NCBI GenBank assembly: GCA_964592855.1
Contig: CAZQKI010000001.1
Span: forward strand, 23,175-87,174
Source of the DNA: an uncultured Lentisphaerales bacterium
GTDB taxonomy: Bacteria; Verrucomicrobiota; Kiritimatiellia; RFP12; JAAYLN01
Direction: 5' to 3'
Length of the DNA stretch: 64,000 nucleotides
The notes under the pieces were generated by a model. That model did not search any database, was not told where the DNA came from, and saw nothing but the letters and a program-made list of their open reading frames with translations. This document shows, piece by piece, positions 5,167-60,516 of this stretch (the first letter of the stretch is position 1; each line of letters opens with the position of its first letter). The position numbers and the translations under genes are program-made.

Positions 5167-5497
5167 TATTACATGAGGCTCATGCACCCCCCACCGAACG
5201 CTGCGCCAAACGGTCGCGTGGCGGGCGGCCGTTGCCACGCCAGCGGTAGACGAACGCTCCGAAATGTGGGATACTTATTTCGTTCGTTTTGGGCGCGGTG
5301 TGTTGCCACGCAGAAGACGATGGGGCGTAGGTTGGGGAGTCAGGCGAGACCACGGTGGGCAGCCGGGTGCTTCAATTTACAAAACGTCCCGGTCGCAAGC
5401 CGGTCTGTATGTCTATACAGGCAGACAGGACAGTCGGCGCAGCGACCGGGGGGTTTTGCTGGAGCCTCGTCTGTTTAGTCATCGGAGGTTGCTTTCC

Positions 5498-8400
5498 ATG
5501 TCACGAGCGAAACGTCTTTCTCCCGGCCGCTACATGGCGGTCTTGGGGAGCGGTCTTTTTCTGATTGCCGCAGGGTGTGCGAGGGAAACGAAGCTTGGGC
5601 CGGCCAAAGGTATTGAGCCGGCCGCCAATCTCCTCCACTTCGTGGCCGCCTCCCCCGAACCAGGCTTCGCACTGCCGCAAATCGTGCTCCAATACGACCC
5701 GGTGGCAAAAACCGGATCGGATGGGGCCCCGGCGTTGCAGTTTTGGGATGTCACGCCGCCGTTCATCATGAGCCGCGCCGCCTGCTACCTGCGCGAGGGA
5801 CTCCTGCGCATGACCGGTCGGTCGTTCACCATTATCAGCACAAACGACCTTTCGAAAGGCATCGTGCTCACGCTGCTCAACGGGGCGGACGCGTCGATCC
5901 GCAACGACCCCGACGTGCAGTCGGCGCTCCGGGCAGATCCGAAGGACGTCTATGCCAGCCAGGAGGCCTATTTCATCCGTTCGGAATCGAACCGCCTGCT
6001 GATCGTGGCCAACACCCCGGCGGGGCTGGCCAGCGGCGTCGTCGAACTGCTTGAATCGGTCGAATACGAAGTGCTCGGAATGGGGCCGGACTGGATCCAC
6101 GTGCCGGACTACCGCAACAAGCCCCTGGCGTTCGCGATTCGCCGCTCGGGCCGGCCAAGTTTCTATATCCGCGGGCTCATCGCCACCAGCGGACAATGCT
6201 ACGGCGTCGGCACGATCGTGTCCGGCCTGACCGATCCGGCGGACGAGCCCGTGACCGACAGCTACTGGCGCTGGCAGATCGGGGCGCGGCTCTTCGGAAC
6301 CTCGATGCCCGGCTTTCCCGGCCATGCGCTGCAGACTTATCACATCCCGGTCATCGACTATATGCGGACTAACAACGTGACCGAGGGCTTCCTCGCCCCC
6401 GGGACGATCATCACCCCCGAAGCCCGGCGGCCCGCCGCGGCCGCCGGAAATAATGGCTGGCTCTGGCTCGACTCGAAAAAAACGGCAGCCTGTTCCTCCG
6501 ACGGCAAAACGTGGGTGGCCAACGACTTGAACAACATCGCCTTCAACCTGGACCTGTCCATGCCCTTTGTCCGGGAGATCATCTTCCGGTCCCTCGCAAA
6601 CATGGCAGAGGCGGCCTTCGAAAAGGAGCCGGATGCGCTCGTGGTTTTTCCCATGGACGCCGAAGATGGTGCCGGCTACGGGAGTCTCGACACGTTGATG
6701 AAGAACAAGACCTGGTATCCCGATTACCTGGCTCATTCGGGCGCGGCCTTCGGCAAGCCCTATGTGCTGCATGGACATAACGGGCTGAATCAGCCGGTCG
6801 AGATCTGGGACCCGGCGGCCGCCAGCGACACGATGTTCGGCTTTGGCAACTATCTCCTGCGCGAATACGATAAATGGATCGACTCCCTTCCGGCGGAGAA
6901 GCGGATCACCGCCTCCGGCAAATCGAAAAAGGACCGGGTGCGCGCCAGCTTCTACAGTTACAACTATCACGACGTGCCGCCGAACTTCAACGTGGACCCC
7001 CGCGTTCGGGTCATGATCGCCAGCTACCCGAAGCACCGCGGCCAGGGCAAGTGGGAAAAATTCGCCTCGCAGGAGGACATGGCCCGCGCCTTCAAGGTCA
7101 TGCTGCCGCGGGAACCCTCCGGCGACTATCGCATCCTGACGCTTTCCTATTACCTCGATCCCGGGCCGGCCAACATCCCCGCCGCCTGGAGCGCGGCGCC
7201 GGCCGCGATCGCCGCCGACTACCGGCGGGCCTATGACGCCGGCTACCGCGCGATCAACTGCGAAACCGATTTCAACTTCGGCCGCTACGGACTCGCCTAT
7301 TACCTCATCGCCAAGTTCCTGTGGAACGCCGACCTGAAGCCGCACGAACTGGACCTTATCCGCGACCGCTGGTTCCGCCGCGCCTTCGGCGGGGCCTGGC
7401 GGGAGATGAAGGTCTACTATGACTTCATGCTGACCGACAACTACCCCGTCAACGGCCCCAACACCTGGGCGCAGGCCATCCGGCTGCTCGATGCCGCCGA
7501 CCGGAAACTAAATGGTGCACAGGAGCCGGCCGCCCAGAAACGCATCGATGACTGCAAGCAGTTCTGGTACCACCACTACCTGATGGACACCGGGCTCTAC
7601 ACGGTGGCGTCGCCCGAGGTCCGGGAATACCTGTGGAAGGGGCAGATGTCGTATATGGTCGCCCTGCACGTGCTGTGCCGGCGCGATTTCGGGAAGGACT
7701 CGGTGCTGGAGGCCCTCGGGCCGGAGGGCGCCAAGGGCCCCGCGCACTACACGCACGCCGAGACCCAGGTCTGGTGGGCGAAGATTCTGGCCCATTGGAC
7801 CGTCACGCCGGTAACCGAATGGACCGAGGCCAAGCTGGCCAATGGCAAGCCGGCGCGATCCGTGGACCTGAACGACCTGGTCAGGGTCAGGGAATTCCAG
7901 AGCGAAAAGAGCGATGCGCCCTTCTACTGGAACAGCGGCTTCATGAAGCCGGTCCCGTTCGTCACGATCGCGCGCCGCAAGGACGATATCGTTGGCTTCA
8001 AGCTCGTCTGGCCTTTCAACCCGAAGGACAGCTACTACATCGCCAAGAAACTGCCCTACGGCGTGGATATCTGGAATCCGGGGACAAAGGCGTGGGACGC
8101 CTGGGTCGACAAGACCATGATCGTCCAGCCGTCCGTCGAGATCACGAATGCTCAGGGGACCGCCATGCAGTTGGTGGATGTCCGGCTCAAGGCGCCGCGC
8201 CCAGGCACGTATCGCTTCGACCTCGGATATGGCGGAAATGCAAGCTTCCTGTCGAGCGTCGCCTACGATCCGGTGACGCAGACCTACACCAACGCCGCGC
8301 CGTTCACCTACACCACCTGCGCCGAAGGGCACACTCAGTCGGAGGTCTATTTCTACATTCCGAAGGGCGTTCAATCCCTTGACCTCGAAGTATGGGATGC

Positions 8401-8662
8401 GGCCCGCGGCAAGCAAATCACGTTTTACAAGGGGTTGCCGGACTGCAAACCCGAAGTTTCGCGCCGCGTAGACGTAACCGGAATGGGAACACACCGGGTG
8501 GCGTTGCAGGCCGGAGAGGACGGCACGGTGGTTTCCCTCTACGGGGACGGGTTCAGCTTTCCTTTCCTCTACTCCGTGCCGACCCTCTGGGCCAAGTCAC
8601 CCGGTGCCCTGCTGGTGCCGCGGGCCGTGGCCGAGGCTGACGGTCTGACGATCCTTCTTTAA
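5498..8662 (+). CDS. Large secreted lipoprotein (about 1054 aa) of unknown function; N-terminal alpha/beta domain resembles GH20/GH67/GH115-type N-domains; possibly DUF4838-like (low confidence)
   Basis: ATG at 5498 with ggaggtt RBS. Lipoprotein-type signal (MSRAKRLSPGRYMAVLGSGLFLIAAGCA). Long conserved-looking frame. The ORF track start at 5264 is probably too early. Confidence 0.7.
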   Translation: MSRAKRLSPGRYMAVLGSGLFLIAAGCARETKLGPAKGIEPAANLLHFVAASPEPGFALPQIVLQYDPVAKTGSDGAPALQFWDVTPPFIMSRAACYLREGLLRMTGRSFTIISTNDLSKGIVLTLLNGADASIRNDPDVQSALRADPKDVYASQEAYFIRSESNRLLIVANTPAGLASGVVELLESVEYEVLGMGPDWIHVPDYRNKPLAFAIRRSGRPSFYIRGLIATSGQCYGVGTIVSGLTDPADEPVTDSYWRWQIGARLFGTSMPGFPGHALQTYHIPVIDYMRTNNVTEGFLAPGTIITPEARRPAAAAGNNGWLWLDSKKTAACSSDGKTWVANDLNNIAFNLDLSMPFVREIIFRSLANMAEAAFEKEPDALVVFPMDAEDGAGYGSLDTLMKNKTWYPDYLAHSGAAFGKPYVLHGHNGLNQPVEIWDPAAASDTMFGFGNYLLREYDKWIDSLPAEKRITASGKSKKDRVRASFYSYNYHDVPPNFNVDPRVRVMIASYPKHRGQGKWEKFASQEDMARAFKVMLPREPSGDYRILTLSYYLDPGPANIPAAWSAAPAAIAADYRRAYDAGYRAINCETDFNFGRYGLAYYLIAKFLWNADLKPHELDLIRDRWFRRAFGGAWREMKVYYDFMLTDNYPVNGPNTWAQAIRLLDAADRKLNGAQEPAAQKRIDDCKQFWYHHYLMDTGLYTVASPEVREYLWKGQMSYMVALHVLCRRDFGKDSVLEALGPEGAKGPAHYTHAETQVWWAKILAHWTVTPVTEWTEAKLANGKPARSVDLNDLVRVREFQSEKSDAPFYWNSGFMKPVPFVTIARRKDDIVGFKLVWPFNPKDSYYIAKKLPYGVDIWNPGTKAWDAWVDKTMIVQPSVEITNAQGTAMQLVDVRLKAPRPGTYRFDLGYGGNASFLSSVAYDPVTQTYTNAAPFTYTTCAEGHTQSEVYFYIPKGVQSLDLEVWDAARGKQITFYKGLPDCKPEVSRRVDVTGMGTHRVALQAGEDGTVVSLYGDGFSFPFLYSVPTLWAKSPGALLVPRAVAEADGLTILL

Positions 8663-9379: not shown

Positions 9380-10537
9380 ATGACGAATCGTGAGCGCGCC
9401 CTGTCCGTACTTCGCTATCAACCGGTTGACCGCATGCCGCTGGTCTATTTCGGCTTCTGGCACGAAACGCTTCAGAAGTGGGCCGCAGAGGGGCACATCC
9501 GGGTGGAATTGGCGAAGGGGTGGGGGGACGGCAATGCGGCCGACTTCGAGATCGCCAAGCTGCTGGGTTTCGACTTCAACTGGCAGTCCTGCTTTTCAAT
9601 GGCCACTTTCCTGAAGCCGTATTTCGAGTCGGTGGTTATGGAAACGCTGCCGGACGGAACGCAGCACATCCGAAACGGGCTGGGTGTCACCGTCACGTCC
9701 AAGGCTGGCGCCGGCTCGATCCCCGCCGAAACCGACCATTTGCTGAAGGATCGTGCCTCCTGGGAGGAGCACTACAAACCGAGGCTGCAATGGGATCCCA
9801 GCCGCGTGGAGGAGGCCCGCGTCCGGATCGGCCAGCAACTCATTCCCTTCGGGCAGGGCGGGATGGAAGCCTTGCGGGATACGCCGCGGGACTGGCCGCT
9901 TTCGCTGCATTGCGGCAGCCTCATGGGAACCATCCGCAACATCGTGGGGATGGAGAACCTGTGCTATCTGGAAGTCGATGATCCCGACCTGTTGTTTGAA
10001 ATCATCGATACCGTCGCCGACCTGTGCTACCGCTGTGCCGAGCATGCGCTCAAGCGGGGCGGGGTCTTCGATTTCGGGCACTTCTGGGAGGACATCTGCT
10101 TCAAGAACGGACCGCTGGTCCGGCCGCAGCTGTTTGCCGAGAAGGTCGGCCCGCACTACCGCCGGATCACCGAACTGCTGAACCGGCATGGTCTGGACAT
10201 CGTCTCGCTCGATTGCGATGGTCAGATCGACGCGCTCATCCCCACGTGGCTGGACAACGGCGTCAACACGATGTTCCCGATCGAAGTGGGGACGTGGAAC
10301 GCCTCGATCGAACCCTGGCGCGCAACCTACGGGAAACGGATCCGCGGCGTCGGCGGGATGAACAAGACGGTGTTTTCCCGGGATCGGAAGGCCGTCGATG
10401 CAGAGGTGAGCCGGCTGATGAAGCTGGTGGAACTGGGCGGATTCATTCCCTGTCCCGACCACCGCATCGCTCCCGACGCGGAATGGGACAATGTCCGTTA
10501 CTACGCCGACCGGATGCGGGCGGTTCTGGGGGCGTAG
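9380..10537 (+). CDS. URO-D/MtaA-like family protein, paralogue 2
   Basis: 385 aa; ATG at 9380 with gagagga RBS; paralogous to 515-1597 and 49586-50584. Confidence 0.8.
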   Translation: MTNRERALSVLRYQPVDRMPLVYFGFWHETLQKWAAEGHIRVELAKGWGDGNAADFEIAKLLGFDFNWQSCFSMATFLKPYFESVVMETLPDGTQHIRNGLGVTVTSKAGAGSIPAETDHLLKDRASWEEHYKPRLQWDPSRVEEARVRIGQQLIPFGQGGMEALRDTPRDWPLSLHCGSLMGTIRNIVGMENLCYLEVDDPDLLFEIIDTVADLCYRCAEHALKRGGVFDFGHFWEDICFKNGPLVRPQLFAEKVGPHYRRITELLNRHGLDIVSLDCDGQIDALIPTWLDNGVNTMFPIEVGTWNASIEPWRATYGKRIRGVGGMNKTVFSRDRKAVDAEVSRLMKLVELGGFIPCPDHRIAPDAEWDNVRYYADRMRAVLGA

Positions 10538-10583: not shown

Positions 10584-10727
10584 GGGTTCAGGGTTCGGGG
10601 TTCAGTAAGGCCGCTGGCGGCCAGAGGCCGCCAGTTGGATCAAGGCAGAAGAACAAACTTTGTCGCGAGCTTTGTCGTGAGCTTTGTCGGCGGTGGTTCT
10701 CAGACCAGTGGGCCGTTGGATCAAGTA
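10584..10727 (+). repeat. Conserved intergenic element, copy A (about 95-bp core shared with 56023-56114); contains the triple direct repeat CTTTGTCG(c/t)gag, a duplicated ccagttggatcaag box and a GC palindrome gccgctggcggccagaggccgcc
   Basis: Direct comparison with copy B: gggttcag..gggttcagt(a/g)aggccgc..cagttggatcaa(g/c)gcag(a/g)agaacaaactttgtcgc(g/a)agctttgtc(g/t)tgagctttgtcg. Confidence 0.6.
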
Positions 10728-10893
10728 TGAGCCTTGCCGCATCGTCCTCGTCCTCATTCTCGTTCTCGAAATATCGCATCGAGGACGACGACGAGGACGA
10801 GGTCGCACTGGCCCCCGTCGTCCCCGTCGGTAGGCGAAAAAGCAGGACACAACGACGCATTTTTCACTACGGGCGAGGACGCCCGGCTCCAGA

Positions 10894-11175
10894 TCACCTT
10901 TGTCGCGATACGGAAAGAAAGTGCCCTTCTGGCTTCCAGGCGGCGCGGTCCGATACGTCCCGCGCTACTTTTACGGCCGCATTGATCCGGGCGTGAGCGG
11001 TAGAGCGGGACGTATTGGACCGCTCAAAGTCAATCGAGCGCATCCTGAACGTAAATGACTCACCACCGAGGGTCGCGCCGCGCCGCTGCATCAGTGCCAG
11101 CACATTGCGATCCCCGACATCGGTTTCATCGTTGGCGATGTCGCGAACGCCGTCGGTTCCGAACATTTTGCTCAT
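10894..11175 (-). pseudogene. Phosphoglucosamine mutase (glmM-like phosphohexomutase) N-terminal remnant
   Basis: MSKMFGTDGVRDIANDE matches the strongly conserved GlmM N-terminus (M.KYFGTDGVRGVANSE) and the active-site-proximal FGTDGVRG motif. Similarity is lost after about 40 codons and the frame stops at 93 aa. No other frame continues a roughly 450-aa mutase, and the space it would need is occupied by the convergent URO-D gene. Confidence 0.5.
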
Positions 11176-51864: not shown

Positions 51865-54800
51865 CTACTTTTCCGCGAATTTGTCATGTGTGATCAGTTC
51901 AAACGCCCGGGAAGGCTTGGATTCCCGTTTCTCGGCATTCACCGTCGTCATAAATAGATACATCTTCGTCTCTGGCCGCAGCCCCGTGATCGACTGGTTG
52001 TCCTTCAAGCCCTTGGCCAGAAGGTCGGCGCCGCGTCCGTCCGCATACCGGCTGAGATAAAGGTTGTAGGTCAACGCCGGGTCTTGATCGAACCGGATCA
52101 GCATGTTCCGTCCGTCGTTGAAGTGCTGTGGCTCCTCGAACCGCTTGATCGCCGGCGCGTTCCCCATCCCTTCGGCGGAGAGCCGGGCGATCGGATTCTC
52201 CGACGGGCCCGTCCACTCGGGCATTGGCGTGCGAAGGCGGCTCGTGGCAACAGCCGGGTCGGCGGCCTGTTCTTCCGACGCATACTCTGCGACCAGGCCG
52301 GCCAGCGTGTAGCTACGTTCCTTCACGAGCTGCATGACGCCAAGCACCGGCACTTCGTTGCGGGCCTCGACGATGATCTTCTCCAGCTTCAATGGCAGAT
52401 CGACCGCGCCATCGCCACCCCGCGAACCCCACCAGGTGGTCTCCAGGTCGCGCGCACCGTCCCCGGGCTTGCTGCCGGGCAGCGGAAAACGCACGTAACG
52501 CCAGCCATCGAAGCTCACGTACGACCAGGCATGGGTGTCGTCGCAGTTCCAGTCGTTGCGGGTGCCCACGGATGTCCAGACTTCGCCCTTGGCGTCGCGG
52601 CACTGGTACACGATACGGCCCCACGAGGAATTGCCTTTGATCCAGACCCCCAGCGCCTCGGCCTTGCCGGGGATCGTGACGGGCTTCTTCAACTTCAACT
52701 GTCCGTAGCGCGTGGCCATCGGCCGGTCGCCCGGTTCGACGGGCAGCGTGACGGCCACCGCATCGGCATGTCCCGCCTCGCCCGGGCCGAACTCGGCTTT
52801 CAAGTTCGGGTCCGTGATCCGCCGCATCGCAAAATGATTCTCCGCATACTCCTTGTCAGCCGATCCGTCGTAGACCCACTGCCCGGCGGTGAAGGGGGCC
52901 AGCGGACGCGTGACCGCGGCGGGCGCCTCGGTGTACCGCGACGGCGCGAGCGTGATCGCTTCGATCACTCCGGCCCCCGTGAGCCAGACCGGCAGGGAGG
53001 TGAGCGTGATCGTGAAGGCGCCTTCCTTGACGGGGCAGGGGACGGCATTGCCCATGGAGTCGGTGACGACCGGCCGGGCCCCGTTCATCGTGACCGTCGC
53101 CTCGCTGGTGCCGTTGACCCGCCACATGGCGTAGATCATCGCCTGATCCGCTGTCCGCTTGAATGCCAGGCAATAGGCCGTCAGGGATCCGGTGTCCACC
53201 GGGCCGACGACATCGGCGCCGCAGAGCATGGCGGTGGCGGTGGCCACGGCGGCCACGGCCGGCTTCGGATTCTCCAGGGGCCGGCGATGGAAGATGCCGG
53301 CGCCGTAGTGCTCGGCCCCGTAGTAGTTCCCGGCGTCCTGCGGCACAATGCCGGCCTCGAACTGCTCGACCCCGTAAGCCAGCGCAAGAAGCGTGTAGCG
53401 GATCTGGTACTCGGCCTGCTCACGCTCGGTCAGTGCTCCGGGCTGCGTGGGAAAAAACGGCCCTTCGCACCAGGCAATCGGCAGGTTCGGCCAGCCCAGC
53501 TTGGCGGCTTGCTGACGCAACGCCCACAGCAGATTGATCGACCCGGTGACGTTGGAAATCTCTGGCAGCAGCTCGAATTGCGGCGCGTCCATGCCGTATA
53601 GGTCGACCAGCTCCTTCGGCATGCCGGCGCGCATGTAGGCGATCGTCCCCTGCGGCGCTCCCCATTGCAGGACCAGCCGGGTTTCGGGACGCTTCGCACG
53701 GACACCCTTGCCGATGGCCGTGAAGATCTTCACGTGCCGCCCGGCATTGGCCTGCTCGATGTCGGTCAGCCCCCGGTCGCCTTCGTCCGTGTAGGCCGGC
53801 CACGGCGCGTACTGCACCGCTTCGCTGATGGCCCACTCGCCGCCGTAGAAGTAGGAAGTGCCGGTGAAATTGGAGGCGATGCTGGCTACTTCGCCGGCAA
53901 CGGCCTCCGCCATGGCCGCGCCATCCACGGTGCCGTCCGGCAAGACCGTCTTGCTGAACTGGTTGCCGACCGTATGGGGTCCGTTGGGGATGAAATCCAG
54001 CCGCTTGAGCAAGCCGGCATTGACAAAAGATTCATGTAGGCTGGTGCGGCGCAGCCCGAGGCGGCGGTACAACGCCAGCGTCCGCTCGTTCGCTGCAAGA
54101 TCGCCGGCCTTCATCGCGGCGTAGTGGCCGAACAGTTCCCAGATGCCAAAGCGTGTTTCATTGGCCGCGTTTCCATACGTGCGGCGGTTGGGCGGCAACA
54201 CGACCAGGCTCAGATCGGCTTCGCGCTTGACGCCGGCCCCTTCGACCTCGACCTTGAGCCCGTGCCAGCCCAATGTCTTCAGGTCGAACGTCAGCGCGAC
54301 GTTCTCCGCCCGGCCGGGCTGGACAACGGCACTCGCCTTGACGGTACGCGTTTCGGTCCCGTCATAGCTGCTCGATGTCACCCGGACCTCCGCCTGGATG
54401 GCCTTTGTCGTCGTATTGGTCACGGCGATGTCCAGAACCGGCTTTTCGGGGCTTTCAAACACAAAATGCGTCTGCCGGGGCGTGACCTGGAAACCGAAGG
54501 GCGCCTCCTCCAGCGTGATCCCGACGATGTGCAGCGAACTGGGAAGCCCGGCGGGATGGTAGCCGTAGTAGATCGGGTCCGGGTAGCTACGGCCCAGTTC
54601 GACCGGCTTGCTCAGTTCGAACTCCAGGAACTGGTCGGCCATGTCGCGCATGCCGTACAACCCCGCCGTGTTCACCGGCACCCGGATCAGATAGAGCGGC
54701 TTGCCGTCCGCCGTCTGCTTCGCCAGCTTCTTCACAAGGCCTTTGCGAATGGCCTCGTCGGTGATCTCCAGATCGGTGCTGGTGGGAAAACCCGCATGCT

Positions 54801-55839
54801 CCTTGAAAAACCGCAGCGTGCCTCTGGGTACCGTGTCGGGCCGTGCCTCGCTCCAGGCCAGCAGCCAGATGTTCTGGTAGTTCCGGTACGGCACGCGGAA
54901 GGTCAGCGAAGCGGGGTCGGCCTGAAATGAACCGGGCCAGGAACACTGGCCGTTCACATACCCGACATCGGGGCCGCTGCCATGGGTGAGTCGGTAGCGG
55001 TAGAGCGAATCGCCGAGGTTGATGTCGGGTGTCCCCGTTTTCGGCAGACGCAGGGGAATCGACTCCACCGTCTCTAGCGTGCTCGCGGGCCGGGCCGCCT
55101 GCGCCTGGCGGGCGTGGCTGTAGGCCTCGAGCGGCAGGGGGAGGAAGCGGCCGTGGTCCGGCGGTGCGGAGAATCCGGCCGAGAGCAGGCTGGCCGTCCC
55201 GGTGAGTTGAACCACCCACCGCACCGGATGCTCCGCGGCGATCCGCTCCTCCGCCACCAGCCGGTCATCCAGCCAGATCTGGCGCGTGTCCCGGGTCAGC
55301 GTCATCCGTACCGTAAACACCTTCTCCGCGAACGGCACGCACGCGGCGTAGGCCGAGCCGATCTCCCGGAGGTCGCGTTCGTCCCAGAGGTTCTTCACTT
55401 TCGGGAACCGCCAGCGATAGGCGATCGCGCCGCCCTTGTCGTCCGGCGTTCCCCAGAATCGGCTGGAGACCGCATCGGTTGCCATGAGTCGCCCCGCCGC
55501 GTTCGCCCGGACGGACGCCTGATTGGGGCCGGTTGGCCGGAACACGCACTCCAACAGCGGCTTGGGCTCATTTGTCGGCCCGACCGCACGGAGCGTGAGT
55601 AGATCGCCATCCGCGGCACGGAGGCGGAAGACCGCCTCGACCGGCAACGGCATTGCCACCTTCGTCTGGAGTTCAAGCGGTGCGCCCCCCTTCGCCTGGA
55701 CAACACGACCCGTTTCGGTCTGGCCTTTGACGACGGTCCATCCCTCCGGCGCGAAGGTGTTCTCAAACGATGGCGGCGCCGCAGGAATGGCCGTAGCCAC
55801 CAATGCCGCTGCAAGTCCGATAATCAAGCGCACGTTCAT
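51865..55839 (-). CDS. Very large secreted protein (about 1324 aa) of unknown function, paralogue A; C-terminal FN3-like module
   Basis: Start trimmed to MNVRLIIGLAAALVATAIPAAPP (ATG at 55837-55839 with aggaga RBS). Shares conserved blocks with the 56398 gene (..SLYRYRL../..SLYRYRM..; ..GYHPAGLPSSLHIVGITLEEAP../..GYQAGGLPSSVRIYGLTLEEAP..). Confidence 0.75.
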   Translation of the reverse strand: MNVRLIIGLAAALVATAIPAAPPSFENTFAPEGWTVVKGQTETGRVVQAKGGAPLELQTKVAMPLPVEAVFRLRAADGDLLTLRAVGPTNEPKPLLECVFRPTGPNQASVRANAAGRLMATDAVSSRFWGTPDDKGGAIAYRWRFPKVKNLWDERDLREIGSAYAACVPFAEKVFTVRMTLTRDTRQIWLDDRLVAEERIAAEHPVRWVVQLTGTASLLSAGFSAPPDHGRFLPLPLEAYSHARQAQAARPASTLETVESIPLRLPKTGTPDINLGDSLYRYRLTHGSGPDVGYVNGQCSWPGSFQADPASLTFRVPYRNYQNIWLLAWSEARPDTVPRGTLRFFKEHAGFPTSTDLEITDEAIRKGLVKKLAKQTADGKPLYLIRVPVNTAGLYGMRDMADQFLEFELSKPVELGRSYPDPIYYGYHPAGLPSSLHIVGITLEEAPFGFQVTPRQTHFVFESPEKPVLDIAVTNTTTKAIQAEVRVTSSSYDGTETRTVKASAVVQPGRAENVALTFDLKTLGWHGLKVEVEGAGVKREADLSLVVLPPNRRTYGNAANETRFGIWELFGHYAAMKAGDLAANERTLALYRRLGLRRTSLHESFVNAGLLKRLDFIPNGPHTVGNQFSKTVLPDGTVDGAAMAEAVAGEVASIASNFTGTSYFYGGEWAISEAVQYAPWPAYTDEGDRGLTDIEQANAGRHVKIFTAIGKGVRAKRPETRLVLQWGAPQGTIAYMRAGMPKELVDLYGMDAPQFELLPEISNVTGSINLLWALRQQAAKLGWPNLPIAWCEGPFFPTQPGALTEREQAEYQIRYTLLALAYGVEQFEAGIVPQDAGNYYGAEHYGAGIFHRRPLENPKPAVAAVATATAMLCGADVVGPVDTGSLTAYCLAFKRTADQAMIYAMWRVNGTSEATVTMNGARPVVTDSMGNAVPCPVKEGAFTITLTSLPVWLTGAGVIEAITLAPSRYTEAPAAVTRPLAPFTAGQWVYDGSADKEYAENHFAMRRITDPNLKAEFGPGEAGHADAVAVTLPVEPGDRPMATRYGQLKLKKPVTIPGKAEALGVWIKGNSSWGRIVYQCRDAKGEVWTSVGTRNDWNCDDTHAWSYVSFDGWRYVRFPLPGSKPGDGARDLETTWWGSRGGDGAVDLPLKLEKIIVEARNEVPVLGVMQLVKERSYTLAGLVAEYASEEQAADPAVATSRLRTPMPEWTGPSENPIARLSAEGMGNAPAIKRFEEPQHFNDGRNMLIRFDQDPALTYNLYLSRYADGRGADLLAKGLKDNQSITGLRPETKMYLFMTTVNAEKRESKPSRAFELITHDKFAEK

Positions 55840-56022: not shown

Positions 56023-56114
56023 GGGTTCAGGAAACAGGGTTCAGTGAGGCCGCCAGTTGGATCAACGCAGGAGAACAAACTTTGTCGCAAGCTTTGTCTT
56101 GAGCTTTGTCGACC
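56023..56114 (+). repeat. Conserved intergenic element, copy B (see 10584-10727), between the divergent giant paralogues
   Basis: aagggttcaggaaacagggttcagtgaggccgccagttggatcaacgcaggagaacaaactttgtcgcaagctttgtcttgagctttgtcgacc, about 90% identical to the core of copy A. Confidence 0.6.
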
Positions 56115-56397
56115 TATTGCAGGCCGCCGCGCGGACCGCCTACGATCGATCATTCGCAGCTTCCTGCAAAAGACGCATGGGCAGGCTTTCTAAGCGTCGC
56201 ATTGTAGTCCTTACACGGAATATCTGAATAATCCTGTAAATCCTGTAATCTTGTCTGAGACAATTTCAAGACGCTTGGACTCTAAATAATCCGCTTGTCA
56301 CCCATTCACAGTCGGCATACACTCGCCGCACGCGAGATGAAACGCCATTCGTAGTGGACCGCACCCGGACGCGCAGATCCGGGCAAAGGACGATGCC

Positions 56398-59300
56398 ATG
56401 ATACGCAGGACGACGACGATTGCAGGGTATGCCTTGATGGCGGGATTGGCCGCGTTCGCCGCGGAACGCCGCGCGCCGGTGGCCGCGCTGCCGATGGAGC
56501 CGGCCGCCGTGAGCGAAGCCTGGGTGGTCAACGATGAAACCAGCACCTTCGCCCTGGGCGTGATCCGCGACGACCTGCTGGCCCGCCCGGTGTTGGAGGT
56601 CGCGTCGCGCAACCTCGACACGCGCGCGGTGCGCAACAAACAGCATGAATACCGGCTCACCTCCCGGGCGACCGCCAAGGGCGCTTACGTCGTCGAGGCG
56701 CTGCTGCGGTTTCCCGATCTGCCGCGGCTGGATGAGCGCGGACGCCCGGTGCGAGCCCGACCCCGTGCCAGCCTGTCGGTCGGATTGCTCACCAACGACC
56801 TGCCCGCCTTTGTCCTGGAGGGGGGGACGGGCGTTTCGCCGCTGTTCATCTGGTCGGTGAAGCGTGGCGACGACCCGCCGAAGGCGAAGCCGGTTTCCGG
56901 GAGCCTGAAGGCGAATGTCACGCCCGACATCTCGCCGCTCTCGCCAGAAGCGTTCCGGTTGGAATCGGAAGCCGAACTGGCCCGCATGCCCCGGCCGGAG
57001 AACTGCTGGATTCCGGTGCGCATCGAGGTCGGTGCCTCCCACCTGCGCTTTTACTTCAACGGCTGCCTGGCGCTGGAACGGCTGCGTGAAGCCGGTACCG
57101 ACGGCCCCGTCACGCTGACCCTGCGCGACCGCGTCCGCATCGCCTCGCTGGAGGTGCGCCCGCTGCCCGGCGACAACGCCCCCTTCGTCACCGTCCCGCT
57201 CGACTCCCGCTGCAATGCCGCGGCGACGCTCGCCTCAGACGCCCTGGCTGCCGTCCGCCAGACCGGCGCCGTACACGGTGTCCCCTTTGTGTTCCCGGCC
57301 ACCGTGCCGTTTGACCACGTCGACGTCGGGCAGAGCCTCTACCGCTACCGGATGGGCACCTCCTATACCGCCGACTACGATCCCCGCATCACCGCGCCCA
57401 GCCCCGCCGAGTTCGAGCCGGGGCGCATCCTGCTGACCGTGCCGAAACGCGCCTACCGGCGGGCCTGGCTGCTGGCCGGCGCCGACGGCCGGGAACACCA
57501 CGTGCCGCTGGTCACGCTGCGCTTCTACAAGCCGTTCACCGGTTGGTCCACCGACACCGCGGTGACGGTCCCCGCCTTCGCATCCAGAGATGGCGGGACG
57601 GCCAAGCCCGTCGCGGTGCGGGATGCCGCCGGCCAGGCGGTGAACCTCTGGCTGGTTCCGGTCGATCTCGACGCTGCGGCACTGGCCGCCGACTTCACCG
57701 GCGATGTGATGCACATCGAACTGACCAAGGCGGTCAAGCCGAACCTCGCCTATCCCGATCCCGCGAACTACGGCTACCAGGCCGGAGGACTGCCGAGTAG
57801 CGTGCGCATCTACGGCCTCACGCTTGAGGAGGCGCCGGTGCAGGCCGTCGCCTCGGGCGACTTGTTCGGCAACACCTACACTGACCCCGAGCAACTGGTC
57901 TGGCAGGTCACGGTACAAAATCGGACGGCCGACACGCTTCCCGTCGAAATCACGGTCGCGGCCACCGATCCCTACGGACTAGCCGCCGCGCCGACGGTCA
58001 AGCGGCTGGCGCTCAAGCCGGGCGAGACGCAGGTGCCGGCCTTTCCCTTGAAGCCCGCCGTCCTGGGCCTCCATGCGGTTCGCACCACCGTCAAGGCCGG
58101 CGACTGGAGCCAATCCCGCGAGGGTTACTTCCTGCGCCTCCCGGCCTTCGCCCGCCGCGAGACCGGCGTCACCAGCCCCTGGGGCGTGTGGAACTGGGGC
58201 GGCACGCACGCCACGCATGGCGACCTCGACGACAACGGCCGGCTGCTGAAGGCTGTCGGCGCCATCAACAATCACGATCTGACGGCGTCGCCCGCCCGCG
58301 GCCAGCCCGCCGTCAATCTCAACGAGTTCAGGAAAAAATGGGGGCTGGGGGCGACGCATGACCGCATCATTCCGCGCGATCCGCCACTCTGGGCCGCCAA
58401 GGATCCGGTCGATCCGGCCGAGCGCGAAGCCTACAAGGAGGTGATCGGAAAACGGGCCCGGCAGTTGAAGGACGACCATCCCGACTTCCAGTACGTCAAC
58501 TGCTTCGCCGAGAATTCCGTCTCGCTTCGCTTGACCCATGGCGTCCGCGCCTCGGCCTTCGGCCTGCCGGAATACGAATTCAACGAGAAGGAACTGGCCC
58601 GCTTGCGCCACCTGCTGACCGCCGCACTGGCGGGGGCCGAGGGCGTTCGCCAATACGCTCCCGAGGTCAAGTTCATCTTCGGGCACGGCGCCGCCAATTT
58701 CGCATGGCCCTTCTTCACGCAGCCGGACTGGAACTTCGACCTCTTCGCCGGCATCGGACTCGATCTGCCGCAGTTCGAGCGGATGCCGGAACGCCAGCCG
58801 CGCGCGACCGAGCCGAGCCTCCTCTATTTTCTCCGGGAGGAACTGAAGGCGCGCGGCCAGATCGACAAGGAACTCGTCCATCTCGAATCCTACTTCCCGG
58901 GAAGCCACGAACTGGCGCTGGGACTCCGGGGACAGGCCGACAGCATCGTCCGCACTGCAGTCCTCTCCCTGGCGCTGGGCACGACCAAGTTCATGCATAC
59001 GTGGAGCCTGCAGGACTGCGCCGACCGCTGGGGCAGCCAGCACTACGGCGGATGCGGGCTCTACGCCCGCATCCCGGAGAGCAATCCCAAGCCCGCCGCG
59101 GCCGCCTTCGCCACGATGACCCGCGTGCTGGACCGGGCCCGCTTCGACGGCTGGATCGATACGGGCAGCCTCAGCACGTTCTGCATCCGCTTCAAGGGCG
59201 AAGACCGGCTGGTCTACGCCGTCTGGACCATCCGCGGCACGCGTCCGCTGGAGGTCGTCGTGAACGCCGGGTCGGCCGGGATTGAACGGATTGATGATAA

Positions 59301-60516
59301 CGGGAACACCTTCCCGGTTGCCGTTGCCGGCGGCAAGGCCGTCGTGCCACTCGCCCCGACACCCTGCTGGATCGTGGTCCGGGGTGGTGCGCTGGCTTCG
59401 GCGGCGGCCGGCGAACCGGTGCATGCCGAGGCGCCCGGCGAGCGCGTCGTGATGCTTGACGACTTTGAAACGCGCGACTGGCAATATGCACCCGGCGCCT
59501 ATGATCGTTACGGCAGCAACAGCTGGGACATGGCCCGCGAGCCGACCGTCCTGGAACAGTCCCGCGTCCGTTCGGAAGTGCGCGGCTCGACCGTCTGGCG
59601 CGTGAGCGCCCGCGCGCTCAAGCTCGACCGTCCCTGTGCCGGACAGTACGGCGTCTTCACGCCCCCCCGGCCGATCCCGATTCCCGGGCAGGCCAGGGCC
59701 ATTGGCATCCGCGGCAACGGCCGCTCGCAATGGTTCCGCCTGGTCTACGAGCTGCAGGACGCACGGGGCGAAACGTGGATCAGCTGCGGGCCGAAGGATG
59801 CCTGGAATTCGGACGACATCCACTCACGCTCCTTCATCAATCACGACGGCTGGCGCTACATGGAGTTCCCGCTGCCTGCCAGCGCCCCGGGCGACAACTA
59901 CCGGGAGATCGGCTGCTACTCGTGGGGCGGTTCGGACGACGGCATCGTCGACCTGCCGCTGAAGCTGACCCGGATCATCGTCGAGATGCGCAGCCATGTG
60001 GTCTACGCTAACGAGATGCTCCCCGTTCCGCCGGAGGACTGGACCCTTGAGCTGGATGATCTGGTCGCCGTCTACGAACGGCCGGAAGATCAGACGGATG
60101 CGCCGGTGAAGCTACAGGCGACGACCAAGGACGTCTGGCGGCCCCGCCGCGTCGATTTGGACCTGCCGAATCCGATCGAGCGGCTGCGTGAGGCGGGCGT
60201 CGGGAACGCCGCCGTCATCGAGAAGATCTATCCGCCCGAGGTGATGGCCGGCGGCGACCAGGTGTATGTCCGCATCCATCCCGTCGCGGATGCGCAGAAG
60301 TATACGGTCTATGTCTCCGCCTACGAAAATGGCACGGGCGCGCAGGTGACGGGGCAGATGCAGAGCAAGGACGAGCCGTCGACGATCTGGGTCCGCAAGC
60401 TGCAGCCCGCGATACCGATGTACTTCTTCGCCACGTACACGGACAAGGACGGCAAGGAATCCAAACCGTCGGTTGTCCGCAAGACGATCTTGCGCGACGA
60501 ATTCCCGTTCAAGTAG
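56398..60516 (+). CDS. Very large secreted protein (1372 aa) of unknown function, paralogue B; C-terminal FN3-like module
   Basis: Signal peptide MIRRTTTIAGYALMAGLAAFAA; collinear conserved blocks with paralogue A; C-terminal ..YTVYVSAYENGTG...SKPS.. FN3-like end. Confidence 0.75.
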   Translation: MIRRTTTIAGYALMAGLAAFAAERRAPVAALPMEPAAVSEAWVVNDETSTFALGVIRDDLLARPVLEVASRNLDTRAVRNKQHEYRLTSRATAKGAYVVEALLRFPDLPRLDERGRPVRARPRASLSVGLLTNDLPAFVLEGGTGVSPLFIWSVKRGDDPPKAKPVSGSLKANVTPDISPLSPEAFRLESEAELARMPRPENCWIPVRIEVGASHLRFYFNGCLALERLREAGTDGPVTLTLRDRVRIASLEVRPLPGDNAPFVTVPLDSRCNAAATLASDALAAVRQTGAVHGVPFVFPATVPFDHVDVGQSLYRYRMGTSYTADYDPRITAPSPAEFEPGRILLTVPKRAYRRAWLLAGADGREHHVPLVTLRFYKPFTGWSTDTAVTVPAFASRDGGTAKPVAVRDAAGQAVNLWLVPVDLDAAALAADFTGDVMHIELTKAVKPNLAYPDPANYGYQAGGLPSSVRIYGLTLEEAPVQAVASGDLFGNTYTDPEQLVWQVTVQNRTADTLPVEITVAATDPYGLAAAPTVKRLALKPGETQVPAFPLKPAVLGLHAVRTTVKAGDWSQSREGYFLRLPAFARRETGVTSPWGVWNWGGTHATHGDLDDNGRLLKAVGAINNHDLTASPARGQPAVNLNEFRKKWGLGATHDRIIPRDPPLWAAKDPVDPAEREAYKEVIGKRARQLKDDHPDFQYVNCFAENSVSLRLTHGVRASAFGLPEYEFNEKELARLRHLLTAALAGAEGVRQYAPEVKFIFGHGAANFAWPFFTQPDWNFDLFAGIGLDLPQFERMPERQPRATEPSLLYFLREELKARGQIDKELVHLESYFPGSHELALGLRGQADSIVRTAVLSLALGTTKFMHTWSLQDCADRWGSQHYGGCGLYARIPESNPKPAAAAFATMTRVLDRARFDGWIDTGSLSTFCIRFKGEDRLVYAVWTIRGTRPLEVVVNAGSAGIERIDDNGNTFPVAVAGGKAVVPLAPTPCWIVVRGGALASAAAGEPVHAEAPGERVVMLDDFETRDWQYAPGAYDRYGSNSWDMAREPTVLEQSRVRSEVRGSTVWRVSARALKLDRPCAGQYGVFTPPRPIPIPGQARAIGIRGNGRSQWFRLVYELQDARGETWISCGPKDAWNSDDIHSRSFINHDGWRYMEFPLPASAPGDNYREIGCYSWGGSDDGIVDLPLKLTRIIVEMRSHVVYANEMLPVPPEDWTLELDDLVAVYERPEDQTDAPVKLQATTKDVWRPRRVDLDLPNPIERLREAGVGNAAVIEKIYPPEVMAGGDQVYVRIHPVADAQKYTVYVSAYENGTGAQVTGQMQSKDEPSTIWVRKLQPAIPMYFFATYTDKDGKESKPSVVRKTILRDEFPFK

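What the first reader, a model, noticed from the sequence alone, without database searches (positions are those of the whole stretch)
10584..10727. Conserved intergenic element of about 95 bp in two copies, with a triple CTTTGTCG direct repeat
The core gggttcag..gggttcagtRaggccgc..cagttggatcaaSgcagRagaacaaaCTTTGTCGcRagCTTTGTCKtgagCTTTGTCGRc occurs at 10584-10727 and 56023-56114 with about 90% identity, in the same orientation and in non-coding DNA. It has several internal features. There are three tandem (R)AGCTTTGTCG units at 11 to 12 bp spacing, which is iteron or transcription-factor-array-like. There are two GGGTTCAG boxes. Copy A also carries a duplicated CCAGTTGGATCAAG box and a GC palindrome. 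Copy A lies beside the decayed glmM. Copy B lies in the control region between the giant paralogues. Possible identities are a regulator binding array, a small RNA, or a miniature repeat element.
Basis: seen in the sequence. Interest (0 to 1): 0.6.

Follow-up and report, generated by a model that had tools for sequence, protein, structure and literature searches.

The report
Orphan arms of an IVS-like repeat
The two conserved intergenic copies are real and belong to an apparently undescribed repeat family of Verrucomicrobia-type (PVC) bacteria, three CTTTGTCG units spaced 12 bases apart, which in related genomes forms the inverted arms around small "four-helix-bundle" genes like those found in ribosomal RNA intervening sequences; the window holds only solitary arms with no gene.

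Summary
There are two same-strand, non-coding copies (10584-10727 and 56023-56114). Their 66-bp core is 94% identical, and each ends in three CTTTGTCG units at an exact 12-bp period.

They are not a private duplication. One capped pattern scan of reference genomes returned about 63 arrays of the same kind, (CTTTGTCG-NNAN)x2-5, nearly all from Verrucomicrobia, Lentisphaerae/Victivallales and Kiritimatiellae MAGs. A metagenome scan found four more elements with the window's own left box.

There is no Rfam match, no significant fold, no coding signal and no linked transposase.

The key result concerns tandem four-helix-bundle genes (PF05635/TIGR02436, the S23p/Avd-like "23S rRNA intervening-sequence protein"). 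In Verrucomicrobia and Kiritimatiellia MAGs the same arrays bracket these genes at fixed offsets: three forward units 22-46 nt before the ATG, three reverse units in the inter-domain linker (translated as DKARDKARDK), and three reverse units just after the stop. Array-derived peptides occur in 72 of 120 family proteins and 0 of 120 controls.

This is the layout of the Coxiella and Leptospira rRNA intervening sequences (terminal stem plus S23p ORF), but placed between protein-coding genes.

The window copies are one-armed and gene-less, so they are most likely relics. A role as protein-binding sites is not excluded.

The parts
10584..10605 (+). Copy A: two GGGTTCAG boxes with a GGGTTCG unit between them (G-rich heptamer tandem repeat)
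   Evidence: The same heptamer lies upstream of arrays in L012, L071, L121 and L122.
10607..10634 (+). Copy A only: a roughly 17-bp insertion that forms a perfect 9-bp GC hairpin, CTGGCGGCC-AGA-GGCCGCCAG (10614-10634)
   Evidence: (I16). Other family members carry different GC palindromes at this same spot.
10631..10657 (+). Copy A: left box CCAGTTGGATCAAGGCAGAAGAACAAA, ending in the A-run that precedes the array
   Evidence: The box is shared with L018 and L119-L122 (leader comparisons z=5.4-17.9).
10658..10689 (+). Copy A: array of three CTTTGTCG units at a 12-bp period (spacers CGAG, TGAG)
   Evidence: With its AACAAA prefix, 38 of 40 bases match the 5' arm of the L143 four-helix-bundle cassette.
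10695..10708 (+). Copy A: right-flank box GGTTCTCAGACCAG. In hairpin-type relatives it follows the inverted arm, which is missing here.
   Evidence: Compare L119 and L121.
10705..10725 (+). Copy A: second, interrupted left box CCAGT[GGGCCG]TTGGATCAAG, probably the stub of an adjacent unit
   Evidence: D6.
56023..56044 (+). Copy B: two GGGTTCAG boxes
   Evidence: D12.
56046..56079 (+). Copy B: left box GGCCGCCAGTTGGATCAACGCAGGAGAACAAA
56080..56111 (+). Copy B: array of three units (CTTTGTCG, CTTTGTCT, CTTTGTCG) at a 12-bp period. It lies between the predicted divergent promoters at 55977-55949 (-) and 56295-56323 (+).

Best explanation
Both copies are solitary, gene-less arms of a dispersed repeat family typical of Verrucomicrobiota in the broad sense (Verrucomicrobiae, Lentisphaeria, Kiritimatiellae).

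The family's hallmark is a block of two to five units, usually three, of a 12-nt repeat: CTTTGTCG plus a loose NNAN spacer, preceded by an A-run.

In its complete form, a forward block and a reverse block act as inverted arms around a roughly 400-nt four-helix-bundle ORF (PF05635/TIGR02436, S23p/Avd-like), or around a tandem pair of such ORFs. In the RNA these arms can pair into a stem of about 32 bp. That is the design of the ORF-carrying intervening sequences (IVS) of 23S rRNA, whose stems are cut by RNase III. Here the element sits between protein-coding genes rather than in rRNA.

Shorter versions, with forward and reverse blocks around a 4-30-nt loop, look like ORF-less derivatives. One-armed versions such as the two in this window look like further decay products.

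I infer that the window copies do nothing essential for the host and persist in permissive intergenic DNA.

**Shown:** family membership, the architecture in relatives, and the absence of a partner arm or ORF in the window.

**Inferred:** RNA-stem function and RNase III processing, selfish spread, and the inertness of the solo arms.
For: **The copies are real and non-coding**.

**The family is widespread.**
About 63 arrays of the CTTTGTCG-N4 type were found, essentially all in PVC MAGs.
- Three units is the commonest count (60 of 103 arrays). The commonest spacer is CGAG, and A occurs at position -2 in 68%.

**The window's subtype recurs elsewhere.** It is found in L018 and L119-L122. In L119 and L121 it is a full palindrome, with fold z-scores of -5.3 and -4.9.

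**The arrays bracket four-helix-bundle genes.**
- L093 has forward arm, tandem PF05635 ORF, reverse arm.
- L143 (Verrucomicrobia) and L146 (Kiritimatiellia) have forward units at -46/-34/-22 from the ATG, reverse units at +401/+413/+425, and reverse units 6 nt after the stop.
- L032 is a single-domain unit between a forward and a reverse block.
- 72 of 120 family proteins carry array-encoded peptides such as DKARDK, RQSSRQ and TKLATK, against 0 of 120 in a control family.
- Many family genes sit on contigs of about 1 kb, which suggests that assemblies break at their borders.

**RNA pairing is plausible.**
- In the L143 RNA fold the 5' arm pairs 32/32 with the linker arm (z=-4.45).
- Differences between arms are mostly G.U-compatible on the sense strand, about 10 against 2-3.

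**The window copies are incomplete.** They have no reverse units within about 700 nt, and the window has no PF05635 gene.

**The known precedent matches.** The Coxiella IVS is a 428-nt selfish element with a 28-bp terminal stem cut by RNase III, an S23p ORF, and three tandem heptamers before the ATG (PMC4990558).
Against: - Only 2 of about 60 array loci carry the gene. So the arrays could be the primary element and the ORF an occasional passenger.
- Similarity between the window's left box and the cassette leader is weak (z=2.5 and 1.1). The link therefore rests on the array and its AACAAA prefix.
- No target-site duplication, empty site or mobility enzyme was found.
- A 94% identical core between A and B, and an invariant 8-mer across three classes, could also mean selection on solo arrays.
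- Direct arrays usually have their 5' side facing the nearest gene. A purely inert relic does not predict that.
- The strand test on hairpin-type arrays was inconclusive: 4 for, 2 against.
Confidence: 0.6

Rival explanations
1. The 12-bp-phased units are recognition sites for a sequence-specific nucleic-acid-binding protein. The candidate is the tandem four-helix-bundle protein encoded by the complete cassettes, or else a conserved host factor. On this reading, solo arrays such as A and B are working binding platforms at gene boundaries, acting as operator, insulator or roadblock, or as decoys.
For: - The 8-mer is invariant while the 4-nt spacers drift, and the spacers of paired arms are often not complementary.
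- Arrays occur in direct or inverted orientation, with a preferred count of three.
- B lies 46 bp upstream of a predicted -35 and between divergent promoters.
- The 5' side of an array faces the nearest gene in most loci.
- Avd-type proteins are known nucleic-acid binders (background cited).
Against: - No binding data exist.
- Copy A lies between convergent 3' ends with no promoter.
- Flanking genes share no functional theme.
- Arrays are sparse: none in about 65 kb of unbiased Verrucomicrobiota DNA.
- 12 bp is off the helical repeat.
- G.U-type differences in the arms favour RNA pairing.
Confidence: 0.22
2. The element acts in RNA as part of the upstream gene's 3' UTR or as a small RNA. It would be a single-stranded CUUUGUCG platform, for example for a termination or stability factor.
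For: About 13 direct arrays lie 13-120 nt after a same-strand stop codon, against at most 2 in antisense orientation. Copy A lies 47 nt after the URO-D-like stop.
Against: - B has no upstream same-strand gene and lies outside the predicted transcripts.
- About 8 arrays face a gene start divergently.
- There is no fold, no Rfam family, and no consistent C-rich tract downstream.
- Only about 1 array occurs per 30 kb or more, so this is not a general terminator.
Confidence: 0.1
3. The pair is a chance or purely local duplication, or a miscalled coding region.
For: There are only two copies in 64 kb.
Against: - Chance expectation is 0.00.
- Dozens of related arrays occur in other genomes.
- The 17-bp indel breaks any reading frame, and variation is not in a period of three.
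- The GC-frame gene caller places both copies outside genes.
Confidence: 0.01

Closest known systems
ORF-containing intervening sequences (IVS) of 23S rRNA (Coxiella burnetii, Leptospira, Brucella, Xanthomonas) encoding S23p / PF05635
   Same: In complete relatives, terminal inverted repeats give a stem of about 28-32 bp that encloses a roughly 120-aa four-helix-bundle ORF. Short tandem direct repeats lie just upstream of the ATG: three GACAGAT units in Coxiella, three 12-mers here. ORF-less versions exist. Both appear selfish or of unknown function.
   Different: These elements are inserted between protein-coding genes, not in helix 25 or 45 of 23S rRNA. The arms are built from a 12-nt repeat conserved across three bacterial classes. 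Many genes are tandem two-domain fusions whose linker is the translated array. The window copies have one arm and no ORF. RNase III cleavage was not tested.
MITE-like small palindromic repeats (Correia/NEMIS, ERIC, RUP)
   Same: They are dispersed, intergenic and multi-copy, with hairpin-forming versions, a tendency to sit at contig ends, and mosaics with other small motifs.
   Different: There is no terminal inverted repeat in the usual sense, no target-site duplication and no partner transposase. Only an internal 12-mer block is conserved across classes, while the flanks differ completely.
REP / BIME / REPIN elements with RAYT transposases
   Same: Both are extragenic, often lie just after stop codons, and occur as inverted doublets with a short loop and as mosaic arrangements.
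   Different: The single unit is a direct repeat, not a palindrome. There is no GTAG or CGTC head (PMC3733652) and no RAYT-like neighbour.
Iteron or centromere-type protein-binding arrays (omega heptads, ParR parC 11-mers, TubR tubC 12-mers; recalled from memory)
   Same: Both are short phased direct repeats usable in direct or inverted orientation, with a conserved core and free spacers.
   Different: The copies are chromosomal and dispersed. No adjacent partition, replication or regulator gene is present, and binding is untested.
Cyanobacterial STRR heptamer tandem repeats (recalled from memory)
   Same: G-rich heptamer tandem repeats in intergenic DNA of unknown function, like the GGGTTCA, GGGCTAG, GCAGACT and GCGAGTT runs upstream of arrays.
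   Different: They occur in a different phylum with different sequences, and here they are an accessory to the 12-mer block.

Membership tests
PVC CTTTGTCG 12-nt array repeat (family defined here) | At least two in-phase units of CTTTGTC(G) at a 12-nt period, with an NNAN spacer and a preceding A-run, in non-coding DNA | tested here: met
   A starts at 10658/10670/10682 and B at 56080/56092/56104. Spacers are CGAG/TGAG and CAAG/TGAG, with an AACAAA prefix.
PVC CTTTGTCG 12-nt array repeat (family defined here) | Occurrence in several unrelated loci and genomes of the same bacterial group | tested here: met
   About 63 arrays were found in Verrucomicrobia, Lentisphaerae/Victivallales, Kiritimatiellae and 'PVC group' MAGs. 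The window subtype occurs in L018 and L119-L122.
IVS-like S23p / four-helix-bundle cassette | Two inverted terminal arms able to form a long stem | tested here: not met
   The window copies have no reverse units (at up to 2 mismatches, in phase) within about 700 nt. The feature is met in relatives L143, L146, L093, L032, L119 and L121.
IVS-like S23p / four-helix-bundle cassette | A PF05635/TIGR02436 ORF between the arms | tested here: not met
   A family HMM finds no hit in the six-frame translation of the window. The feature is met in L093, L143, L146, L151 and L032.
IVS-like S23p / four-helix-bundle cassette | Insertion in 23S rRNA (helix 25 or 45) | tested here: not met
   The window has no rRNA. 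All cassettes examined lie between protein-coding genes.
IVS-like S23p / four-helix-bundle cassette | Excision or processing of the stem by RNase III | not testable with these tools
   This needs RNA-seq, RACE or an in vitro cleavage assay.
MITE | Terminal inverted repeats plus a target-site duplication | tested here: not met
   Neither copy has matching direct repeats at its borders or an inverted partner.
MITE | A related autonomous element encoding a transposase | tested here: not met
   No protein family recurs next to the 57 array loci. The only associated ORF is the four-helix-bundle gene.
REP/REPIN | A 20-40-nt imperfect palindrome with a GTAG or CGTC head, and a RAYT gene | tested here: not met
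   The unit is a direct repeat with no such head and no RAYT.
Small RNA or known Rfam family | A match to a covariance model, or a conserved structure with a promoter and terminator | tested here: not met
   There are no Rfam hits. Fold z-scores are +1.06 and -2.1. Copy A has no promoter or terminator.
Transcription-factor operator or iteron array | Phased repeats placed at a regulated promoter or origin and bound by a cognate protein | tested here: inconclusive
   B lies between divergent predicted promoters. A lies between convergent 3' ends. No binding data are available.

The most novel reading that the evidence does not exclude
The CTTTGTCG 12-mer blocks are the cis sites of a self-contained selfish system. 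The tandem four-helix-bundle (S23p/Avd-like) protein would recognise the blocks as RNA or DNA and promote processing, copying or spread of its own cassette. The far more numerous hairpin and solo arrays, including the two here, would be non-autonomous passengers or decoys. This would give the first function for the stand-alone S23p family and a mechanism for how IVS-type elements arise and move.
Probability: 0.25. Interest if true: 0.85.

Novelty: new variant of a known kind. Interest (0 to 1): 0.6.

Why it matters
Intervening sequences with S23p ORFs have been known for about 30 years, yet their origin, mobility and the role of the protein are still open. Stand-alone "four helix bundle protein" genes are very common and unexplained.

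This family offers a defined handle on those questions. It has a short, invariant, countable cis motif, tied at fixed offsets to the gene and even translated in frame as its linker. It also comes with natural gene-less and one-armed derivatives.

That makes direct tests possible, such as protein-array binding, RNase III cleavage and presence/absence mapping.

For annotation, recognising the motif explains recurrent contig breaks. It also explains spurious small ORFs (DKARDK..., RQSSRQ..., LSRALS...) in Verrucomicrobia, Lentisphaerae and Kiritimatiellae MAGs.

Tried and rejected
- **Coding region:** six-frame reading of both copies shows that the 17-bp indel breaks frame and that variable positions (9, 10, 12 of the unit) are not in a period of three.
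- **Known RNA:** Rfam at gathering and E-value thresholds, on the window and on 20 family loci, gave nothing on the element. It returned only an adjacent Acido-Lenti-1 motif and a TPP riboswitch. There are no tRNAs.
- **RNA structure of the window copies:** not significant.
- **Rho-type rut site:** there is no consistent C>G tract downstream. Only a G-rich tract upstream is consistent, with mean skew +0.25 in 22 of 27 arrays.
- **General terminator:** arrays are too sparse.
- **Sigma-70 or Bacteroidetes-type promoter readings of the array:** spacings do not fit (by inspection).
- **Linked transposase or RAYT:** none found.
- **Orthologous-locus comparison:** four metagenome contigs of the same population are 100% identical. 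The nearest URO-D homologues (79% and 75%) lack synteny.
- **Plasmids and viral contigs:** no true arrays. The two viral hits are AT-rich coding repeats.
- **Literature by sequence string:** nothing found.
- **Homology between the window's left box and the cassette leader:** weak (z=1.1-2.5), so it is not claimed.
- **Strand test by G.U asymmetry on hairpin-type arrays:** inconclusive, 4 against 2.
- **Similarity of GTTGGATCA(C)+GGAG to the 16S rRNA 3' end:** noted, and treated as probable coincidence.
- **Defence-system link of the ORF:** no PADLOC hit.

Full report
**1. Observation**

- BLASTN aligns 10624-10689 with 56046-56111 at 93.9% over 66 bp. A 35-mer from this core occurs only at these two places, even with three mismatches, against 0.00 expected.
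- Each copy ends in three units starting with CTTTGTCG at an exact 12-bp period (10658/10670/10682; 56080/56092/56104). The middle unit of B reads CTTTGTCT.
- Each begins with two GGGTTCAG boxes 14 bp apart.
- Copy A carries a roughly 17-bp insertion that makes a perfect 9-bp GC hairpin (10614-10634). After the array it has a box GGTTCTCAGACCAG and an interrupted second copy of the GTTGGATCAAG box.
- Outside the two arrays the 8-mer is at background frequency.

**2. Setting in the window**

Copy A lies 47 nt after the stop of a URO-D-like gene (9380-10537). It sits upstream of the stop of a convergent 93-aa ORF that overlaps a GlmU-C-terminal-like gene. A strong hairpin made of hexamer-like repeats follows at 10735-10807 (z=-4.26).

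Copy B lies between the divergent starts of two 1324-aa and 1372-aa paralogues, which are 30% identical over 1142 aa. It sits between predicted sigma-70-like promoters at 55977-55949 (-) and 56295-56323 (+).

A GC-frame gene caller that reproduces the window's long genes puts both copies outside genes.

**3. What it is not**
- There is no Rfam family at gathering or permissive thresholds and no tRNA.
- The RNA folds are unremarkable: B z=+1.06, A z=-2.1 (owed to its private GC hairpin), and the reverse strands z=-1.55 and +0.69.
- The indel breaks any reading frame, and the variable positions of the unit (9, 10, 12) do not follow codon periodicity.

**4. A large family**

Hexamer-type coding repeats were set aside. 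That left about 63 arrays of the type CTTTGTCG-NNAN, nearly all from MAGs labelled Verrucomicrobia, Lentisphaerae/Victivallales, Kiritimatiellae or 'PVC group', often several per MAG and often at contig ends.

Across 103 arrays:
- three units is the mode (60 arrays, partly by ascertainment); 39 arrays have two units;
- the commonest spacer is CGAG;
- A occupies position -2 in 68%.

The 50 nt upstream are G-rich (mean GC skew +0.25, positive in 22 of 27). They are often built of heptamer tandem repeats that differ between genomes: GGGTTCA as here, and also GGGCTAG, GCAGACT and GCGAGTT. Downstream composition is not consistent.

In many loci a forward block faces a reverse block across a 4-30-nt loop. 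The pair is almost always convergent, and the spacers of the two arms are frequently not complementary. Higher-order tandem arrays also occur (L096, L043, L071, L009).

**5. The window's own subtype**

A metagenome scan that required the left box plus two units found four contigs, L119-L122. Together with L018 they share GGGTTCAG boxes, a variable GC palindrome, and CCAGTTGGATCAAGCAGGAGAACCCA before the array (leader z=5.4-17.9).

L119 and L121 are complete palindromes, with z=-5.3 and -4.9. Their inverted arm is followed by GGTTCTCAGACC, the box that copy A retains without the arm. So A looks like such an element that lost its second arm, and B like a bare first arm.

**6. Context statistics**
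- Direct arrays near a stop codon follow it in the sense orientation: about 13 cases at 13-120 nt, against at most 2 antisense.
- About 8 arrays face a gene start divergently, as B does. In general the 5' side of the array faces the nearest gene.
- The flanking genes are functionally diverse, and no protein family recurs.
- Arrays are sparse. There are two in this 64-kb window, and none in about 65 kb of Verrucomicrobiota DNA sampled without regard to arrays.
- No true arrays occur in plasmid records or in 2.9 million viral contigs.

**7. The link that explains the family**

In L093 the triple array sits 10 nt before the ATG of a tandem PF05635 (23S rRNA intervening-sequence protein / TIGR02436 four-helix-bundle) ORF, and reverse units lie at its end. 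A search with that ORF returned 392 homologues at E<=1e-10. Those with names were mostly from Kiritimatiellia and Verrucomicrobia. Many sit on contigs of about 1 kb, barely longer than the gene.

DNA was fetched for five further family members:
- **L143 (Verrucomicrobia) and L146 (Kiritimatiellia)** have the same offsets. Forward units lie at -46/-34/-22 from the ATG. Reverse units lie at +401/+413/+425, between the two domains. Reverse units also begin 6 nt after the stop.
- **L151** has forward units, linker units and one terminal unit.
- **L139**, the orthologue of the L093 locus, has degenerate units.
- **L161** sits between two complete hairpin elements.
- **L032**, from the original scan, is a single-domain ORF between a forward and a reverse block.

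The linker block is translated in frame as DKARDKARDK. 72 of 120 family proteins carry array-derived peptides (DKxxDK in 61, RQSSRQ in 8, TKLxTK in 3, LSRxLS in 2), with 0-5 units. None of 120 control proteins does.

In the folded L143 transcript the 5' arm pairs 32/32 with the linker arm (z=-4.45). Differences between arms are mostly G.U-compatible on the sense strand, about 10 against 2-3. This is suggestive, not conclusive.

With its AACAAA prefix, the window A array matches the L143 5' arm at 38 of 40 bases. Similarity further upstream is weak (z=1.1-2.5) and is not claimed.

The window has no PF05635 gene and no reverse units near either copy.

**8. Comparison with what is known**

The Coxiella burnetii IVS is a 428-nt selfish element in 23S rRNA. 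A 28-bp stem of terminal inverted repeats is cut by RNase III. It carries an S23p (PF05635) ORF and has three tandem heptamers just before the ATG. Similar ORF-bearing IVSs exist in Leptospira, Brucella and Xanthomonas. Their origin, mobility and the role of the protein are unresolved (PMC4990558). PF05635 is homologous to the DGR accessory protein Avd (PMC10053308).

The family described here has the same design but differs in four ways:
- it lies between protein-coding genes;
- it uses a 12-nt repeat conserved across three classes as its arms;
- it often fuses two ORFs through a translated block;
- it has many gene-less and one-armed derivatives.

I found no paper containing the motif and no Rfam family for it.

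**9. Interpretation**

Most likely (0.6), the window copies are orphan first arms of this IVS-like family, kept in DNA where they do no harm. Complete members would act through an RNA stem, probably as an RNase III substrate. That step is inferred from the precedent, the perfect pairing and the wobble bias.

The main rival (0.22) is that the units are protein recognition sites, perhaps for the four-helix-bundle protein itself, so that even solo arrays work as binding platforms. The invariant 8-mer with free spacers, the preference for three units, and the consistent facing of arrays towards genes keep it alive. A 3'-UTR or small-RNA role (0.1) fits copy A but not copy B, and has no structural support.

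**10. Limits**
- The genome scan was truncated and the metagenome scan was narrow.
- Gene calls in fetched loci are my own heuristic, except where contigs came with calls.
- Only six independent cassettes were seen at the DNA level.
- No close relative of the source organism was available for presence/absence tests.
- No expression or binding data exist.

Noticed in passing
window 10735-10807: A strong imperfect hairpin built from TCGTCC/TCGTTC-type hexamer repeats and their complement (MFE -50.5 kcal/mol, z=-4.26). It lies between the convergent genes, 45 nt after copy A, and has no U-tract. Similar pyrimidine-rich short tandem repeats follow arrays in L027, L076 and L021.
   Followed up: partly
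window 10898-10908: A fourth, isolated CTTTGTCGCGA unit on the + strand. It lies inside the 3' end of the convergent 93-aa ORF, 209 bp beyond the array of copy A.
   Followed up: no
window 10634-10652 and 56056-56074: The left box reads GTTGGATCA(A/C), followed by an SD-like GGAG (AGAAG in copy A). It resembles the 16S rRNA 3' end, GGUUGGAUCACCUCCUU, with the anti-SD replaced by its complement. L018 and L119 read GGATCAC. This is probably coincidence.
   Followed up: no
window 56230-56263: A tandem AATCCTGTA x2 (56230-56247) and a palindrome TTGTCTGAGACAA (56251-56263) lie in the AT-richer stretch just upstream of the predicted promoter (56295-56323) of the 1372-aa gene.
   Followed up: no
window 51865-55839 (-) and 56398-60516 (+); also 5264-8662 (+): These are divergent large paralogues with no Pfam or NCBIfam domain (30% identity over 1142 aa). 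A third large domain-less ORF lies upstream of copy A; its relation to the other two was not tested.
   Followed up: partly
L116 7292-7336; L084 6622-6667 and 6763-6808: Acido-Lenti-1 RNA motifs (RF01687, 40-49 bits) occur in array loci, in L116 immediately next to an array. This suggests that these intergenic regions collect several kinds of small repeats.
   Followed up: no
L122 884-983: A TPP riboswitch (RF00059, 68.9 bits) lies about 200 nt downstream of the window-type element on this metagenome contig.
   Followed up: no
L096 636-1221; L043 7564-7709; L071 6663-6877; L009 3251-3425: Higher-order tandem repeats in which the whole unit (array plus heptamer-rich spacer, 63-94 bp) is repeated up to about 8 times, in a satellite-like manner.
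   Followed up: partly
Proteins P0121-P0240: Gene callers translate the arrays in several frames. They appear as inter-domain linkers (DKAR)n with 0-5 units, as C-terminal tails (RQSSRQSS..., TKLATK...) and as N-terminal extensions (LSRALSRALS). Because the repeat is 12 nt, changes in unit number stay in frame.
   Followed up: yes
window 9380-10537: The URO-D-like protein has more than 5000 homologues at E<=1e-30. They are about 62-66% identical across Lentisphaerae, Kiritimatiellae, Planctomycetota, Hydrogenedentes and others, but only two are closer (79% and 75%). This suggests a widely exchanged gene and a sparsely sampled source lineage.
   Followed up: partly
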